Assembly (NCBI GenBank): GCA_012813795.1 | Contig: GCA_012813795.1_4087.1 | Length of the DNA stretch: 64,000 bases | From: a phage | Reading direction: 5' to 3' (one strand) | Shown: in pieces, positions 8,272 through 44,663 of the stretch | Layout of the letters: every line of letters begins with the position of its first letter | How positions within the stretch are numbered: the first letter of the stretch is position 1 | Position numbers and translations under genes: made by a program | Notes under the pieces: model-generated | What the model saw: only the letters and a program-made list of their open reading frames with translations | The model's database searches: none | Told to the model about the DNA's origin: nothing

Positions 8272-8346
8272 ATATTACTCTCCATGTATGTTATTACAAT
8301 TTCCATTATATCATAGTTAATTGGGTTGTCCCAATTATAAAATAAA

Positions 8347-8368
8347 AGAGAACGACGAATCGTTCTCT
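8347..8368 (-). terminator. Rho-independent terminator after the VWA gene
   Basis: AGAGAACGA-cgaa-TCGTTCTCT hairpin; T-rich tract on the minus-strand side (complement of aaaataaaag). Confidence 0.5.
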
Positions 8369-8378
8369 ATATTTATTT

Positions 8379-11191: not shown

Positions 11192-11256
11192 GTGTATTTT
11201 CCTTTTGTTGGATAAAAAACTAGGTTTATATTATAACCAATCCGTTGGCAAAAGTA

Positions 11257-11296
11257 AAGGAACTGTGTTAAAAGTATTTTAACTTATCAGTTCCTT
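11257..11296 (-). promoter_or_regulatory. Long stem-loop in leader region
   Basis: AAGGAACTG ... CAGTTCCTT 9-bp inverted repeat; the loop carries a second palindrome TTAAAA-gta-TTTTAA. Confidence 0.3.
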
Positions 11297-11358
11297 ATCT
11301 TCAGTGAATCATCCGTGTGTTTAAAAAGGTCAATCTTGTTTGCCGTCTTGATGTGGTC

Positions 11359-11386
11359 ATTATATCACATCGTTCAGGCTTGTCAA
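11359..11386 (-). promoter_or_regulatory. Near-consensus sigma70 promoter P1
   Basis: Minus strand reads TTGACA-16 nt-TATAAT with TGn extended -10. Confidence 0.6.
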
Positions 11387-11452
11387 CAACTTTTTTTTCT
11401 TTCTTTTTCAATCTCACATCTTGTGATTTTGAAATCTTGCTTCGTGACGTTC

Positions 11453-11480
11453 ATTATATCACGTTAATCTGTACTGTCAA
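11453..11480 (-). promoter_or_regulatory. Near-consensus sigma70 promoter P2, tandem copy of P1
   Basis: Minus strand reads TTGACA-16 nt-TATAAT with TGn; shares GTGATATAATGA core with P1. Confidence 0.6.
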
Positions 11481-11544
11481 CATCTTTTTCATTTTTATTT
11501 TCGAAGCGTTCTACATATGCATCGAAAATAACTGCTTGAAATCA

Positions 11545-27110: not shown

Positions 27111-27196
27111 AACTATAACGCATAATCTTATCTCTTAATAGCAATGATGCCCAGATACAATTATTATATCAGAAGTCGTTCTCTTGTCCCAGAGTT

Positions 27197-28312: not shown

Positions 28313-28939
28313 TTACACCTTATTAATAGATTTAGTAATTCTACCATTGTTAATATCATCTTGTAAAATATCAATGCGTCTTTTTAAACCATTGATCACT
28401 TTATCACTAACAATATTTTTATATTCATCAATAATTTCATTCAAATAAATTATTTTTTCTCTCTGCCACGCCGCATGTGCTTCCTCTGGTGTATAAAAAT
28501 GACCCAATTTATAAGATTTTTTATTTTTCACTATTTCAGCACAATATGGTTTTGTACGTTCATTTAACATACCTTTTGATGGTTGTTTATACCAAACACC
28601 GACTGGATATTGTGTATTTGAACGCCTATCAATAATACAACTGTTTACTTTATGAGGAACAAATGAGCATGTTTCAGGTGAATAAATTTTTGATTTACCA
28701 TCGATAATATCTTTATCTAAAAAGAAATCATCTTGAATAAAATTTTCAATAGCCCAATTATGAAAATTTTCATAATTACGCCATTCTTCACATACAGATG
28801 TACCAGCATAAGATGTATGTCGCTTTAATGATTTTTCAGAATAACATCGTTCAATCATTCTTGCCCAGTATCCGTAAAACTTATTTTTTCTAGCTTTACC
28901 ATATTTTTTGGAATCATAAATTCCAAATCCATATACCAT
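28313..28939 (-). CDS. Hypothetical protein with YxxWxxMxxRC motif
   Basis: 208-aa ORF; motif recalls phage DNA-binding or homing-endonuclease-associated families but is not assignable. Confidence 0.6.
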   Translation of the reverse strand: MVYGFGIYDSKKYGKARKNKFYGYWARMIERCYSEKSLKRHTSYAGTSVCEEWRNYENFHNWAIENFIQDDFFLDKDIIDGKSKIYSPETCSFVPHKVNSCIIDRRSNTQYPVGVWYKQPSKGMLNERTKPYCAEIVKNKKSYKLGHFYTPEEAHAAWQREKIIYLNEIIDEYKNIVSDKVINGLKRRIDILQDDINNGRITKSINKV

Positions 28940-28940
28940 A

Positions 28941-29063
28941 TTATTCTCCCATCAACCAATCACGCAGACTTTCCCAGAAGCCTTTTGGCTTGTATTCTGG
29001 AACTTGATATTCGTCGGTTCCTTGTTCAGAAACACCCCAATCTTCTTCTAACATTGCAATCAT
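28941..29063 (-). CDS. Small hypothetical protein (40 aa), not in ORF track
   Basis: ATG with strong GGAGG ribosome-binding site; stop abuts next start. Confidence 0.4.
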   Translation of the reverse strand: MIAMLEEDWGVSEQGTDEYQVPEYKPKGFWESLRDWLMGE

Positions 29064-29074
29064 AAAGCCTCCAA

Positions 29075-29497
29075 TTAAATTAATCTGTCACGCAAGCGGG
29101 ATTCATATTGTTTATGTATAGATAGTATATACTGAAATGAAGAATAGTCAATACTAAATGTATCATCAATGAACATGTACTGATCAAGTGTTTCAGGTCC
29201 ATCATCAACTACAGGCAATGAACCTACTTTCTTTTCTAACACATTCCATGCAAACTCATCGGAAGTATCAAATCTATGGTATTGTAGTTCTATCTTACTT
29301 TTTCTTAGTATAATTAATAATTCATCACCATCATCATATGCATTACGGATTTTAATACGTACTGTTCCTTGTAACTGGTTAGTATACATTACGCGATATT
29401 GGTTGTATGTGACTAAACCACGTCTTTCAGTACTGAACTCTTGTTCAGAAAAGTACTTTAACGTTTCGTTGAATTTGGGTATTTTAGTAACGTCCAA
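29075..29497 (-). CDS. Hypothetical protein, tandem paralog 1
   Basis: C-terminal YMFIDDTFSIDYSSFQYILSIHKQYE is paralogous to the next gene. Confidence 0.6.
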   Translation of the reverse strand: MDVTKIPKFNETLKYFSEQEFSTERRGLVTYNQYRVMYTNQLQGTVRIKIRNAYDDGDELLIILRKSKIELQYHRFDTSDEFAWNVLEKKVGSLPVVDDGPETLDQYMFIDDTFSIDYSSFQYILSIHKQYESRLRDRLI

Positions 29498-29900
29498 TTA
29501 CGTAATCCTCATACTGTTCGTATACACGCATTATACTCTGATATGTCACAAAGTCAATACCAAAGGTATCATCAATGAACTGATATTGCATAAACTCTTC
29601 CTCGGTAGCACCAATAGGAAGTGTGCCGTTTCGTTGATCGTTTGATTGAACATCTTCAATGTACATCAAACCTATACTTTCATCTAAAGTGATATCTATC
29701 ATAAAAACATCTTCACTATAAAACATGTTATATGAACGGATGAAAAGATTACCAGTTCTATCAAAACTTGATACATGTGTTTCAACGTAGGTTCTATCTA
29801 AACTAAAGAATAAACCAGTACCATCGGGTTTTCGTTGGTCTTTCAATTTAATTTCGATAGCATCAAATATCGGTTTAATATTAAACTTTTTCATAAGCAA
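29484..29900 (-). CDS. Hypothetical protein, tandem paralog 2
   Basis: C-terminal YQFIDDTFGIDFVTYQSIMRVYEQYE. Confidence 0.6.
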   Translation of the reverse strand: MLMKKFNIKPIFDAIEIKLKDQRKPDGTGLFFSLDRTYVETHVSSFDRTGNLFIRSYNMFYSEDVFMIDITLDESIGLMYIEDVQSNDQRNGTLPIGATEEEFMQYQFIDDTFGIDFVTYQSIMRVYEQYEDYVIGRY

Positions 29901-30079
29901 ATCACATACTTATTACTATGTGGATCGTAACAGTAAGAGTCGTTCACCTTAATGCCAGGTTTGAGTTCCAGGGTTGTACCCATTTCAGTACTGGGTTCTG
30001 CATCACAATAAATCATCACACCAATGCCACCGAGTAAGGCTATGATACATATAACTGCACCTATTGTATATTCCATCAC
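29891..30079 (-). CDS. Small membrane protein
   Basis: 62-aa ORF with one hydrophobic helix AVICIIALLGGIGVMIY. Confidence 0.5.
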   Translation of the reverse strand: MMEYTIGAVICIIALLGGIGVMIYCDAEPSTEMGTTLELKPGIKVNDSYCYDPHSNKYVICL

Positions 30080-30092
30080 TATACCTCTGTTA

Positions 30093-30178
30093 TAAAAAGT
30101 AATTATACATTTTATTGTACAATATAAAAAGGTCTTAAAAAGTAATTATACATTTTATTGTACAATATAAAAAGGTCT
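30093..30178. repeat. Perfect tandem duplication, 2 x 43 bp
   Basis: TAAAAAGTAATTATACATTTTATTGTACAATATAAAAAGGTCT occurs twice head to tail; each unit holds the palindrome TATTGTACAATA; units span the stop codon of 30112..30525. Confidence 0.9.
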
Positions 30179-30525
30179 TTCACATTATCATAAGTAATGT
30201 TAGATAGATCATAAATCAATGATAACTGAAAAAATGAAGCTTCGTCTATATCTACTGGGATTATAACATCATCATCTTCTGCCATTTTATTATCGTAGTA
30301 TTTTATGTGGTCTTCATTAAACTCAATAGAGATTGATACTGCGTTGGATTTCATATCTTCAATTAATCCAATCAAATTAGATTTATCATTAATAAAAAAT
30401 CCAATTCCAACCCTACGGTCATCTGGATATGGATAGTACCATCTATTAAATACTAGACTATCTGGTAAATCAACATCATGTGTTGATACGAGAGATTTTA
30501 CAATTTCCATCCAAGCATAATTCAT
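30112..30525 (-). CDS. Hypothetical protein whose 3' end runs through the 43-bp duplication
   Basis: 137-aa ORF; last about 21 codons are encoded by the two repeat units in different frames. Confidence 0.6.
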   Translation of the reverse strand: MNYAWMEIVKSLVSTHDVDLPDSLVFNRWYYPYPDDRRVGIGFFINDKSNLIGLIEDMKSNAVSISIEFNEDHIKYYDNKMAEDDDVIIPVDIDEASFFQLSLIYDLSNITYDNVKDLFILYNKMYNYFLRPFYIVQ

Positions 30526-30537
30526 AATTAAAACTCC

Positions 30538-30569
30538 ATAAGAAAAGGGACAGAAATAATCTGTCCCTT
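30538..30569 (-). terminator. Stem-loop after the hibernation-factor gene
   Basis: AAGGGACAG-aaataat-CTGTCCCTT 9-bp stem, T-rich on minus side. Confidence 0.5.
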
Positions 30570-30576
30570 TGTTATA

Positions 30577-30909
30577 TTACTCTTCTTCGTCAGTTACATC
30601 AACTACAACTGGACGGTCTGGATGGTTTCGGTGGTGCAATTTAATGCTTTTGTCTTTACTGAATACAGTTTCCATTTTTTCGAATGAATCGACAATCGCC
30701 TTGTATAAATCTGCATCATCGGCAGTAACAGACTTACCACCTGATGTTAAAGTTACTGCGTACTGTGTCTTATGCTCTTTTTTCACATGAACACCAATAT
30801 TCAGTACTGAAGAATCACTAAATTTATTTAGAGTGTTTGCTTCTTGATGAATTGCGTCATGGATTGCTGGAGTAATATCAACATTACCTTGAATAACTAG
30901 ATTTAGCAT
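30577..30909 (-). CDS. hpf: Ribosome hibernation promoting factor / RaiA (YfiA family) homologue
   Basis: MLNLVIQGNVDITPAIHDAI ... TLTSGGKSVTADDADLYKAIVDSFEKMETVFSKDK aligns with E. coli HPF along its length. Confidence 0.75.
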   Translation of the reverse strand: MLNLVIQGNVDITPAIHDAIHQEANTLNKFSDSSVLNIGVHVKKEHKTQYAVTLTSGGKSVTADDADLYKAIVDSFEKMETVFSKDKSIKLHHRNHPDRPVVVDVTDEEE

Positions 30910-30923
30910 ACTTCACCTTCCTT

Positions 30924-31853
30924 TTATATTGAGCTTAACAAAGTATCCGCTCTGTTTGTTACTTGCCTATACCATAAGGAATTTTTGATTTCTCTTTTAA
31001 ACTTCTTATGATTTTCAGCTTCAGCACTTCTCCATAGTTTATTAAATGAGGCCAACTTATCAACACCCATCGTGTAAGCCATGTCAAAGAGAATACGTTG
31101 TTGGTCTTTTGTAAGATTTACTGCATTTTTTTTCTTCATTAGAGTTGTAAAGTCATTATATGTCCTTTTCAAATCTTGAAGTAATAGTTTATGTGCTTGT
31201 GCTTTGGTAATACCGTTTCTGTACTTAATTGCATCAGATTCACGTGGACCGAGGTAGTGACCATATGCGATTGTGTAGTTACCTTTCATATCCTTATAAG
31301 GATGAAATTTTGAATTGTAGAAAGGAACTCCAACTTTTCCCCCAAGTAAACGTCTTTTGTTCTTGGACTGAAATTCAATTGAACCTTCAGCTTCTTTGAT
31401 GTGTGCTACTATTTCAGGATCATTATAATCGAAAAGTACTACCACATCAGGTAACAGTACGTCTTTCAAATCCTCTTTTGTTGGGATAAAGATACCCTGC
31501 GATGTATGAAGTTTAGCATTAAGATTGATATTCTTCAATACTGTAACGTAATCATCTAACAACACATTATGCGGTTTAAACTTCTTAGCTATCGAATGAT
31601 AACTATCACCGTATTCAACAGTATAATGTTTCTCGCTGCCCGGAACTACTTTAGGTGTATACCCTTTGGGTAATTCCTGCTTTTGAATTTGTGTAACTTG
31701 CGGTTTTAAATTGTGCACCTGACTTTCGCCCGATGATGATGCACGACCATGATGAGAAAAACCATAAAAAAATCCAAACGCAGCGATGATAACAAGTGAA
31801 ACTAATAAGCCTATGGCTGTCTTAGTTTTAGGTGTTTGTATCGCTATTGTCAA
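30924..31853 (-). CDS. Membrane-anchored lysozyme: N-terminal transmembrane anchor, LysM-like domain, GH24 (T4 lysozyme-type) catalytic domain
   Basis: TM helix GLLVSLVIIAAFGFFYG; LysM-like HYTVEYGDSYHSIAKKF; GH24 motifs EAEGS...YKDMKGNYTIAYGH and WYRQVTNRADTL; TTG start with AAGGAGG ribosome-binding site. Confidence 0.85.
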   Translation of the reverse strand: MTIAIQTPKTKTAIGLLVSLVIIAAFGFFYGFSHHGRASSSGESQVHNLKPQVTQIQKQELPKGYTPKVVPGSEKHYTVEYGDSYHSIAKKFKPHNVLLDDYVTVLKNINLNAKLHTSQGIFIPTKEDLKDVLLPDVVVLFDYNDPEIVAHIKEAEGSIEFQSKNKRRLLGGKVGVPFYNSKFHPYKDMKGNYTIAYGHYLGPRESDAIKYRNGITKAQAHKLLLQDLKRTYNDFTTLMKKKNAVNLTKDQQRILFDMAYTMGVDKLASFNKLWRSAEAENHKKFKREIKNSLWYRQVTNRADTLLSSI

Positions 31854-38071: not shown

Positions 38072-38791
38072 TCACTTCGTTCTCTCGTAACTCAAGAATT
38101 CGTTTCGTTATCTACGATAACTCACTCATTCATATTAATTAATATTGTATTGTACTTTTAAAGATTGACGGGATTTGTTGAGGACATTTTCATCCCCCCG
38201 CAGGGGAATGATATTAAAAAAGAACCAATGAAGGTTCTTGATTTTGACGCTGATGGCATCGGAATTTATCGAATTGCGAATTTCTCCATATTTTGGACGG
38301 TTCAAGGGTGTCCAATTTTTGGAGAACGAAAGCGGGTTGCTCTGTTTCTCTCTATCGCAGTCATATGCAACGGTCGCAGGTATTTTCATCCCCTGCACTA
38401 AAGTACTGGAACTATTCGATCAATTCAGTACTCGTTTTACTCAATTTTTGGGTGCAACTTTCCCGTAGAAAAATTGACCGCTTGTTTTAAGTAAAACTCC
38501 CTTAGCAAATCTGGTAAGGTGCGATCCTTATACATCTATCGAGGAACTCTCTGTATGCTTATCGGAGTTCTTTATTGAGCCGTGTCGCCGTGTGATCCGT
38601 GTCTTATTTCGCGTTTGTATGAATGCACTTGGATGGTACTAACGGGTTTCTTTTGCTCATCGCCTCAGTGGGAAGGCTCATCTATCCTTTACATTTTCAA
38701 GAGAAGTAGGTTCTTCTTGTCCGTTGTTAAAACGTCCACTGACATTTTCCATTACAATATAATTATAGCACAATATAAAGTATTGTCCCAA
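38072..38791. other. 720-bp non-coding island with several stem-loops (candidate structured RNA, origin or regulatory region)
   Basis: Only long stretch without a credible co-directional ORF; visibly less AT-rich than the flanks; hairpins CCCC-ccgca-GGGG near 38190 and TGGAC-ggttcaagggt-GTCCA near 38295. Confidence 0.5.
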
Positions 38792-44595: not shown

Positions 44596-44627
44596 AGATT
44601 CCTCCTAGTTTTTTAGCATTATACAGA

Positions 44628-44656
44628 TAAAAGAAAAGCCTGTCAATAGACAGGCT
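44628..44656. terminator. Rho-independent terminator after the fibre-like operon (T-tracts on both sides)
   Basis: AGCCTGTC-aata-GACAGGCT perfect 8-bp stem; TTTTCTTTT on the minus side and TAATTTTTT on the plus side. Confidence 0.7.
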
Positions 44657-44663
44657 TAATTTT

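What the first reader, a model, noticed from the sequence alone, without database searches (positions are those of the whole stretch)
30093..30178. Perfect 43-bp tandem duplication spanning the 3' end of a gene
Two identical 43-bp units lie head to tail. Because 43 is not a multiple of 3, the gene 30112..30525 reads the two copies in different frames and stops in the second; without the duplication the C-terminus would differ. Each unit carries the 12-bp palindrome TATTGTACAATA, a plausible protein-binding site. A perfect copy implies a very recent event, or an assembly artefact.
Basis: seen in the sequence. Interest (0 to 1): 0.55.

Follow-up and report, generated by a model that had tools for sequence, protein, structure and literature searches.

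The report
Inherited 43-bp tandem duplication allele
The perfect 43-bp tandem duplication is real and is an inherited variant carried by many related giant E. coli phages, not an assembly error; it adds seven amino acids to a protein of unknown function and looks close to neutral, so it is an ordinary feature.

Summary
Two identical 43-bp units lie head to tail at 30093-30178. The minus-strand gene 30112..30525 reads them in different frames and stops in the second unit.

The window is an Asteriusvirus (121Q/PBECO4-type jumbo coliphage). The same two-unit structure, with the same boundaries, is present in at least 11 other assemblies: phages A4, J, BF17 and WPEC5, four E. coli-assembly contigs, two metagenome contigs (one built with k=141) and one Logan contig. 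Most relatives carry one unit, so their protein ends ...YNYFL* at 130-131 aa instead of 137.

All two-unit alleles carry the same unit variant (AAAATG). Most also share an identical ~157-bp block that sits in flanks 14-47 % divergent. This points to a single origin followed by spread through recombination.

Copy A encodes the conserved C-terminus and is unchanged in all 12 two-unit DNA alleles. Copy B has a point change, a 12-nt deletion, a 1-nt insertion at its 3' boundary (phage J) and a recombinant end in different lineages, so it is under relaxed constraint.

The 12-bp palindrome is not unusual for this window and occurs nowhere else in it. The TATAAT in the unit lacks a -35 element and fits none of this phage's promoter types.

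Verdict: a real, near-neutral, polymorphic tandem duplication. A regulatory role is possible but weakly supported. Interest is low.

The parts
30136..30178 (-). Unit A of the duplication. On the minus strand it reads AGACCTTTTTATATTGTACAATAAAATGTATAATTACTTTTTA and encodes the conserved C-terminus (D)LFILYNKMYNYFL of the 137-aa protein.
   Evidence: Unchanged in all 12 two-unit DNA alleles examined.
30093..30135 (-). Unit B, identical to unit A here. It is read in another frame (RPFYIVQ, then stop); the rest becomes a 35-nt spacer before the next gene.
   Evidence: Altered in some relatives: WPEC5 (1 nt), L015 (T->G), L018 (12-nt deletion), and J (+1 T at its 3' boundary).
30112..30525 (-). Gene for a 137-aa protein of unknown function. 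It is the homologue of 121Q gp534 (PHROG 36582) and is found only in Asteriusvirus.
   Evidence: The PHROG profile ends at residue 130, which is the one-unit C-terminus.
30112..30135 (-). The seven extra codons (RPFYIVQ) plus the TAA stop created by the duplication.
30156..30167 (.). 12-bp palindrome TATTGTACAATA in unit A. It encodes part of ILYNK.
30113..30124 (.). 12-bp palindrome TATTGTACAATA in unit B. It overlaps the stop codon.
30145..30150 (-). TATAAT (-10-like hexamer) in unit A. These are the codons TAT AAT (Y N).
30102..30107 (-). TATAAT (-10-like hexamer) in unit B, 26 nt upstream of the ATG of the next gene.
   Evidence: Deleted in L018. It reads TACAAT in the single unit of TH47.
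30179..30249 (-). Upstream part of the short haplotype block (30093-30249) that most two-unit phages share at 99-100 % identity despite divergent flanks.
30084..30087 (-). Shine-Dalgarno GAGG of the downstream gene.
29891..30076 (-). Downstream gene for a 61-aa protein with a hydrophobic N-terminus (homologue of 121Q gp535, PHROG 4189). In some relatives an unrelated two-gene cassette is inserted between the unit and this gene.
30544..30570 (-). Terminator-like hairpin between the HPF/RaiA-like gene and the 137-aa gene.

Best explanation
This is a heritable, polymorphic 43-bp tandem duplication at the junction between the gp534-like and gp535-like genes of an Asteriusvirus.

Origin (inferred). 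It arose once by illegitimate recombination or replication slippage, with only 1 nt of microhomology at the boundaries. It arose on a unit of the AAAATG type.

Spread (shown). It now sits on a short block, identical in most carriers, that homologous recombination has moved into several otherwise divergent genomes. The conserved unit itself provides the crossover point, and it also marks the boundary where a two-gene cassette is present or absent.

Consequences (shown).
- The reading frame shifts by one base, so the protein gains seven residues (RPFYIVQ) before a new stop.
- The gap between that stop and the next gene's ATG grows from 13 to 35 nt.

Selective effect (inferred). The duplication is close to neutral. 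The copy that still encodes the conserved C-terminus is frozen. The second copy drifts, is partly deleted, and may be lost again by recombination between the repeats.
For: Presence in independent assemblies. Two units with identical boundaries are found in A4, J, BF17, WPEC5, L016, L017, L019, L020 and the k141-named contig L024. The variant alleles L015 and L018 also carry two units.

Protein-level distribution. Five of 35 phage records align through residue 137 and the rest end at 130-132. Several two-unit protein clusters exist in the 15-billion-protein collection.

Single origin. All two-unit alleles have AAAATG in both units. The many 121Q-type (AAACTG) genomes always carry one unit.

Shared block. 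J, BF17 and WPEC5 are 99-100 % identical to the window over 30093-30249, but only 86 % identical to the right and 53-72 % to the left. That is no closer than one-unit phages. At least 5 different haplotypes begin directly after unit B.

Module boundary. The two-gene cassette starts right after the unit.

Relaxed constraint on copy B. There are 0 changes in unit A across 12 two-unit alleles. Unit B carries a recombinant end, a T->G change and a 12-nt deletion, and J has an extra T at its 3' boundary. The tail also varies as ...YIGQ and ...YIEQ.

The tail is not part of the family. The PHROG 36582 profile ends at residue 130.

No regulatory signature. The consensus scan finds no promoter at the TATAAT, and the number of sites in the region is at chance level (12 found, 13.4 expected). 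The unit core does not recur in the window. The palindrome is not enriched. There is no Rfam match and no unusual RNA fold.
Against: Synonymous variation is low in the last 14 codons: 1 event observed against about 5 expected, P about 0.04. The unit is about half as variable as the upstream coding sequence (pi 0.041 against 0.093). Both could reflect an extra DNA-level constraint.

The spread of one short identical block into divergent backgrounds could also result from positive selection.

A perfect TATAAT lies 26 nt upstream of the next gene's ATG. There is a terminator-like hairpin upstream of the 137-aa gene and no canonical promoter between that hairpin and the unit, so a weak internal promoter cannot be excluded.

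L015 carries the duplication on 121Q-like flanks. That requires either very short-patch recombination or a second origin with identical boundaries.
Confidence: 0.65

Rival explanations
1. Regulatory duplication. The unit carries a weak sigma-70-type promoter (TATAAT with an AT-rich upstream region), with the palindrome as an operator in the spacer at about -29 to -18. Doubling it gives tandem promoters or operators for the small membrane-protein gene and the genes after it. The allele then spread because it was favoured.
For: There is a perfect TATAAT with TG just upstream in each unit. The unit precedes two different downstream genes in different phages, like a portable module. A terminator-like hairpin lies upstream of the 137-aa gene and no canonical promoter lies between that hairpin and the unit. 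Synonymous changes are depleted in the unit. A short identical block has spread across backgrounds.
Against: The best -35 at 17 nt is TTTTTA (3 of 6), and the consensus scan does not call the site. The TG is one base out of register for an extended -10. The clear promoters of this window are TTGACA-N17-TGnTATAAT or TGGGACAA-type, and they sit in real intergenic gaps. The unit core matches nothing else in the window. TATAAT here is simply the codons for Tyr-Asn in an AT-rich genome. Copy B has lost the hexamer in L018, TH47 has TACAAT, and the protein P0021 implies an allele with no hexamer at all (inferred from the protein). The palindrome is unique, at chance frequency, and mutated in JNE01 and in copy B of three alleles.
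Confidence: 0.12
2. Protein-level adaptation. The point of the duplication is the new seven-residue tail RPFYIVQ, which changes the activity, partner binding or stability of the gp534-like protein.
For: The tail is kept in many lineages. The low-confidence model places it as a continuation of the C-terminal helix.
Against: The tail varies at one codon (V, G or E). The protein family profile ends before it. Most of the genus lacks it. The model is unreliable (pLDDT 57), and no function is known for the protein.
Confidence: 0.08
3. Unstable, copy-number-variable repeat. The two perfect units recombine often, so natural populations are mixtures of one-unit and two-unit genomes. The state seen in any assembly is then a sample of that mixture.
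For: Almost every two-unit protein allele has an otherwise identical one-unit twin: P0002/P0005, P0007/P0010, P0014/P0027, P0008/P0020 and P0017/P0022. L013 and L017 are identical over 6371 nt except for the unit.
Against: Four of the five twins come only from Logan assemblies, which may collapse a perfect 43-bp repeat. The DNA of the other Logan alleles could not be inspected. Two perfect units are stable enough to be found in at least nine other assemblies besides the window.
Confidence: 0.1
4. Assembly artefact. The second unit is not in the real genome.
For: Nothing beyond the general suspicion raised by a perfect repeat.
Against: The same junction is present in at least 11 other assemblies from different laboratories and pipelines. 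One contig has a k141-style name, so its k-mers would span both units. Diverged versions of copy B exist. Graph-based assemblers collapse such repeats; they do not create them.
Confidence: 0.02

Closest known systems
Short tandem duplications in T4-type and other lytic phages, produced by replication slippage or illegitimate recombination and lost again by homologous recombination between the copies (from my own knowledge of the classical T4 and lambda literature; not tested here)
   Same: Head-to-tail identical copies; presence/absence polymorphism among close relatives with fixed boundaries; a frame shift when the length is not a multiple of 3; decay or loss of one copy.
   Different: Only 1 nt of microhomology at the boundaries. 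The allele has persisted long enough to be carried into several divergent genomic backgrounds. No rate of gain or loss has been measured.
PeSL-type mobile regulatory cassettes (promoter-early stem-loop) at module junctions of T4-type phages
   Same: A short conserved sequence sits at a boundary where small gene cassettes are swapped between related phages, and it contains a -10-like hexamer.
   Different: There is a single locus per genome instead of many dispersed copies. There is no stem-loop and no proper early promoter. The conserved sequence is mostly coding.
Tandem sigma-70 promoters and operators placed in the promoter spacer
   Same: Two TATAAT hexamers 43 bp apart upstream of a gene, each with a perfect dyad between the would-be -35 and -10.
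   Different: There is no acceptable -35, the TG is out of register, the dyad is not repeated elsewhere, and both elements are dispensable in natural variants.
Predicted promoter classes of the RaK2/121Q/CBB clade (PMC5259590): RpoD-like with an UP element; TGAAACG at -35 plus TATA; and a late ATAAATA class
   Same: An AT-rich region with a TATA-containing hexamer.
   Different: The unit matches none of the three classes. The window's own clear promoters look different.

Membership tests
Simple tandem duplication polymorphism | Two head-to-tail copies of the same sequence | tested here: met
   43 bp x 2.0 copies, 100 % identity.
Simple tandem duplication polymorphism | Close relatives carry one copy at the same site, with the same boundaries | tested here: met
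   One unit in 121Q, PBECO4, slurp01, SD-15, ph0011, Ecwhy_1, JNE01 and TH47. Two units in A4, J, BF17, WPEC5 and others.
Simple tandem duplication polymorphism | Short direct repeat (microhomology) at the boundaries, as slippage would predict | tested here: inconclusive
   The array is 87 nt, which is 2 x 43 + 1, so only 1 nt is shared. A 9-nt direct repeat CTTTTTATA exists, but it is spaced 32 nt apart, not 43.
Spurious duplication (assembly artefact) | Confined to one assembly and absent from independent data | tested here: not met
   Present in at least 11 other assemblies, including a contig with a k141-style name.
Sigma-70-type promoter | -10 hexamer close to TATAAT | tested here: met
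   TATAAT at 30150-30145 and 30107-30102 on the minus strand.
Sigma-70-type promoter | -35 hexamer (at least 4 of 6 matches to TTGACA) 16-18 nt upstream, or a TGn extended -10 | tested here: not met
   The best -35 is TTTTTA (3 of 6). The scan does not report the site. The TG directly abuts the hexamer, so it is out of register.
Sigma-70-type promoter | Kept in relatives wherever the downstream gene is kept | tested here: inconclusive
   At least one hexamer is kept in nearly all alleles. However, copy B's is deleted in L018, TH47 has TACAAT, and P0021 implies complete loss.
Sigma-70-type promoter | Transcripts start downstream of the -10 | not testable with these tools
   No transcript-start data for Asteriusvirus turned up in the searches made.
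Palindromic operator (protein-binding dyad) | Dyad symmetry beyond chance, or repeated at several regulated sites | tested here: not met
   35 perfect 12-bp palindromes in the window against about 24 in shuffles. This one occurs only in the two units. At up to 2 mismatches there are 8 matches against 11.9 expected.
Palindromic operator (protein-binding dyad) | Dyad conserved in relatives | tested here: inconclusive
   Intact in most phages. It is 10 of 12 in JNE01, and copy B reads TATTGGACAATA in L015. The tail variant ...YIEQ implies GAA at the centre. In copy A it is also coding sequence.
Palindromic operator (protein-binding dyad) | A cognate DNA-binding protein | not testable with these tools
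   The neighbouring proteins have no DNA-binding domain hits.
PeSL-like mobile regulatory cassette | Many near-identical copies dispersed through the genome | tested here: not met
   One locus per genome in all 35 phage records, apart from a second copy of the whole region in CMSTMSU. No related core elsewhere in the window.
PeSL-like mobile regulatory cassette | Lies at the boundary of exchangeable gene cassettes | tested here: met
   A two-gene cassette begins right after the unit in WPEC5, Ecwhy_1, ph0011 and JNE01.
Intrinsic terminator or structured RNA element | Stable GC-rich hairpin followed by a T run, or a match to a known RNA family | tested here: not met
   No terminator is called in the units. 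Fold z-score is 0.13 for one unit in context and -2.1 for two. No Rfam match.

The most novel reading that the evidence does not exclude
The two-unit block is a positively selected regulatory allele. Doubling a weak promoter/operator module in front of the small membrane-protein gene changes its expression. The ~157-bp block then swept by recombination through co-circulating Asteriusvirus lineages, which would make it a rare traceable example of a short cis-regulatory duplication spreading horizontally among jumbo phages.
Probability: 0.1. Interest if true: 0.4.

Novelty: new member of a known kind. Interest (0 to 1): 0.15.

Why it matters
There are three modest reasons.

1. It removes a false alarm. 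The perfect repeat is genuine sequence and should be kept in the assembly.

2. It warns that short-k assemblies may under-report such repeats. One Logan contig differs from an NCBI assembly only by the missing unit.

3. It works as a small natural experiment. Duplication separated the coding role of the sequence (copy A, frozen) from any role tied to position next to the downstream gene (copy B, drifting). This argues that the strong conservation of this 43-bp stretch is mostly protein-coding constraint.

If the regulatory reading were nevertheless true, it would give a handle on the still unmapped transcription signals of 121Q-type jumbo phages.

Tried and rejected
Lines that led nowhere or were set aside:

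- **Known RNA families and tRNAs.** Rfam on 29000-31500 at E<=1 and on the whole window at gathering score, plus ARAGORN: nothing relevant.
- **RNA structure.** Folding of one-unit and two-unit transcripts showed no significant structure.
- **Dispersed copies.** Search for the unit core, or for a TTGTAC-N8-10-TATAAT architecture, in the window: only the two units.
- **IMG/VR scans.** The unit core returned only 121Q itself and the junction returned nothing.
- **JGI metagenome scan.** The junction gave one hit (L022), which is an unrelated chance match to the 24-mer.
- **Literature.** Searches for transcript or promoter mapping in Asteriusvirus found only genome reports and the predicted promoter classes in the CBB paper.
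- **Structure prediction.** The AlphaFold model of the 137-aa protein had mean pLDDT 57, so no fold search was run.
- The look-up of P0001 found no record.
- **A conclusion I dropped.** I first read the one-unit twins as proof of k=31 collapse. I withdrew that as a conclusion because Logan also holds two-unit-length proteins. It remains one of two possibilities.
- **Other readings rejected.** An iteron or replication-origin reading (only two copies, 43 bp, inside a gene) and a target-site duplication (no element between the copies).

Full report
**1. The observation**

Tandem Repeats Finder reports a single array at 30093..30179 with period 43, 2.0 copies, 100 % matches and score 174. It is the only repeat in the window with a period above 33. 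Direct comparison confirms that 30093-30135 equals 30136-30178.

Genes here run on the minus strand. On that strand the unit reads AGACCTTTTTATATTGTACAATAAAATGTATAATTACTTTTTA. The ORF 30112..30525 (137 aa) reads unit A as (D)LFILYNKMYNYFL. Because 43 is not a multiple of 3, it reads unit B as RPFYIVQ and stops at TAA (30114-30112). With one unit, a TAA follows directly. The palindrome TATTGTACAATA is at 30113-30124 and 30156-30167.

**2. What genome this is**

The region matches 35 phage records, all Asteriusvirus (121Q/PBECO4-type jumbo phages of E. coli and Salmonella). The closest is phage A4, at 97 % identity. A protein 100 % identical to the window's comes from a 357,761-bp contig in an E. 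coli assembly.

On the minus strand the local gene order is:
- lysozyme (30924..31853);
- an HPF/RaiA-like protein (30577..30909);
- a terminator-like hairpin (30544-30570);
- the 137-aa gene, homologue of 121Q gp534 (PHROG 36582, unknown function);
- a 61-aa protein with a hydrophobic N-terminus, homologue of gp535;
- two paralogous genes of about 140 aa.

The 137-aa gene occurs only in this genus within the phage collection.

**3. One unit or two in relatives**

Two units with identical boundaries are present in A4, vB_Ec-M-J, BF17 and WPEC5. One unit is present in 121Q, PBECO4, slurp01, SD-15_S21, ph0011, Ecwhy_1 and JNE01.

By protein length, five of the 35 records (adding EC.P1) reach residue 137 and the rest end at 130-132. 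A 60-nt probe finds the unit at one locus per genome. The exception is CMSTMSU, which shows two well-separated places (positions about 15 kb and 370 kb of the record), i.e. a second copy of the whole region.

In the large protein collection there are many two-unit alleles. Their DNA shows two perfect units in four E. coli-assembly contigs (L016, L017, L019, L020). The same is true of an ENA metagenome contig whose name, k141_536911, indicates a k=141 assembly, so single k-mers would span both units. The duplication is therefore real sequence. The isolates come from Ireland, Poland and Thailand, among other places.

**4. Age and spread**

All two-unit alleles carry AAAATG in both units. The numerous 121Q-type genomes carry AAACTG and always have one unit. 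This argues for a single origin.

J, BF17 and WPEC5 are 99-100 % identical to the window across 30093-30249. To the right they are only 86 % identical and to the left 53-72 %, which is no closer than one-unit phages. Directly after unit B at least five different haplotypes begin. One of them is an unrelated two-gene cassette, in WPEC5.

One metagenome allele (L015) has the two units inside 121Q-like flanks on both sides.

The allele is therefore young relative to the divergence of the flanks, which explains the perfect copies. But it is old enough to have been recombined into several backgrounds. The nearly invariant unit, together with the invariant 17 nt upstream of it, offers a stretch of identity in which such crossovers can occur. 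That last point is inference.

**5. Is the unit a regulatory element?**

Arguments for:
- a perfect TATAAT with TG just upstream in each unit;
- the unit lies upstream of two different genes in different phages;
- a terminator-like hairpin lies upstream of the 137-aa gene;
- synonymous changes are mildly depleted in the last 14 codons: 1 observed against about 5 expected, P about 0.04;
- the unit is about half as variable as the neighbouring coding sequence.

Arguments against:
- The best -35 is TTTTTA, and the consensus scan does not call the site. The number of promoter-like sites in the region is at chance level, 12 against 13.4.
- The evident promoters of this window are TTGACA-N17-TGnTATAAT or share a TGGGACAA motif, and they lie in real intergenic gaps.
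- None of the clade's predicted promoter classes fits (PMC5259590).
- The unit core matches nothing else in the window.
- TATAAT is simply the codon pair Tyr-Asn.
- Perfect 12-bp palindromes are common here, 35 against about 24 in shuffles. This one is unique to the units and not enriched at up to 2 mismatches.
- There is no RNA family match and no notable fold.

**6. A natural experiment**

In 12 two-unit DNA alleles, unit A never changes. Unit A still encodes the conserved C-terminus. Unit B carries a recombinant end (WPEC5), a T->G change in the palindrome (L015) and a 12-nt deletion that removes its TATAAT (L018). In J an extra T lies at its 3' boundary.

Protein tails ...YIGQ and ...YIEQ show two different changes at the centre of copy B's palindrome. 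P0021 (...LYNKIFITDEL) implies an allele with the TGTATAATTAC segment deleted altogether (inferred from the protein only). TH47 has TACAAT in its single unit. The PHROG profile of the family ends at residue 130, before the tail.

Together these observations indicate two things. The conservation of the 43-bp stretch is mainly protein-coding constraint. The second copy is under relaxed constraint.

**7. One-unit twins**

Nearly every two-unit protein allele has an otherwise identical one-unit twin. L013 (Logan) and L017 (NCBI) are identical over 6371 nt apart from the unit.

Four of the five twins are found only in Logan assemblies, so collapse of a perfect 43-bp repeat by a short-k assembler is a real possibility. 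However, Logan also holds two-unit-length proteins whose DNA I could not inspect, and one twin comes from ENA. Real loss of a unit by recombination, and assembler collapse, both remain open.

**8. Conclusion**

The feature is a real, inherited, polymorphic tandem duplication. It most likely arose once by illegitimate recombination, spread on a short block, and is close to neutral. It adds seven residues to a protein of unknown function and 22 nt to the spacing between that gene's stop and the next start (13 to 35 nt). A promoter or operator role is not excluded, but I give it about 0.1. As a kind of feature it is ordinary.

**9. Side observations**

- The octamer palindrome CAGTACTG is the most frequent 8-mer of the window, 45 copies against about 0.7 expected. 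It lies almost entirely inside genes, in more than one reading frame, and occurs at similar density in related phages. A search of the paper library returned only primer-sequence hits. This seems more interesting than the finding itself.
- An HNH homing-endonuclease-like ORF lies at 28313..28939, and A4 does not match that stretch.
- A promoter-like class with a TGGGACAA motif recurs in three intergenic gaps.

Noticed in passing
whole window; e.g. 14698, 27557, 29428, 29986, 30802, 35261, 51271, 52511 (45 sites in all): The 8-bp palindrome CAGTACTG is the most frequent 8-mer in the window: 45 copies against about 0.7 in shuffles. AGTACT occurs 141 times against about 22, and TTCAGTACTGAA occurs 7 times exactly. 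43 of the 45 sites lie inside ORFs, spread over reading frames (25, 15 and 3), and their flanks are not conserved. Related Asteriusvirus loci show a similar density of about one per kb, and an unrelated metagenome contig has none. This looks like a genome-wide DNA-level signal, such as a binding, modification, nicking or recombination site. A search of the paper library returned only primer-sequence hits.
   Followed up: partly
window 28313..28939 (minus strand): A 208-aa ORF matches HNH homing-endonuclease families (PHROG 953, E = 9e-69). The closest relative, A4, does not align to this part of the window. It is probably a mobile endonuclease gene inserted between the small-gene cluster and the CCA-adding enzyme gene.
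   Followed up: partly
window gaps 8272-8378, 27111-27196, 38399-38791 (minus strand): Three intergenic regions share (T)TGGGACAA followed, 18 nt after TGGGA, by TGnTATAAT. This may be a phage-specific promoter class, distinct from the canonical TTGACA-N17-TGnTATAAT promoters seen at 11192-11544, 44596-44663 and 60312-60379.
   Followed up: no
window 38399..38791 and 11192..11544: Two ORF-free gaps of about 390 and 350 nt carry strong promoter-like sequences at their upstream ends. They have no tRNA and no Rfam match, and could encode unannotated small RNAs or leaders.
   Followed up: partly
L004 786-1282 (WPEC5); also Ecwhy_1, ph0011, JNE01: A two-gene cassette (123 aa and 41 aa) is inserted directly after the 43-bp unit in some relatives. 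The 41-aa protein belongs to the same PHROG (34272) as the window's 40-aa ORF at 28941..29063, so the cassette contains a local paralogue.
   Followed up: partly
window 29075..29497 and 29484..29900 (minus strand): Two adjacent genes of about 140 aa are paralogues (both PHROG 20693). Each contains a strong sigma-70-like match at the equivalent position: TTGACT-16-TATAAT at 29557-29530 and TTGACT-16-TATACT at 29151-29124.
   Followed up: no
L013 compared with L017: A Logan contig and an NCBI assembly contig are identical over 6371 nt, except that the Logan contig has one 43-bp unit and the NCBI contig has two. This may be an example of a short-k assembly collapsing a perfect tandem repeat.
   Followed up: partly
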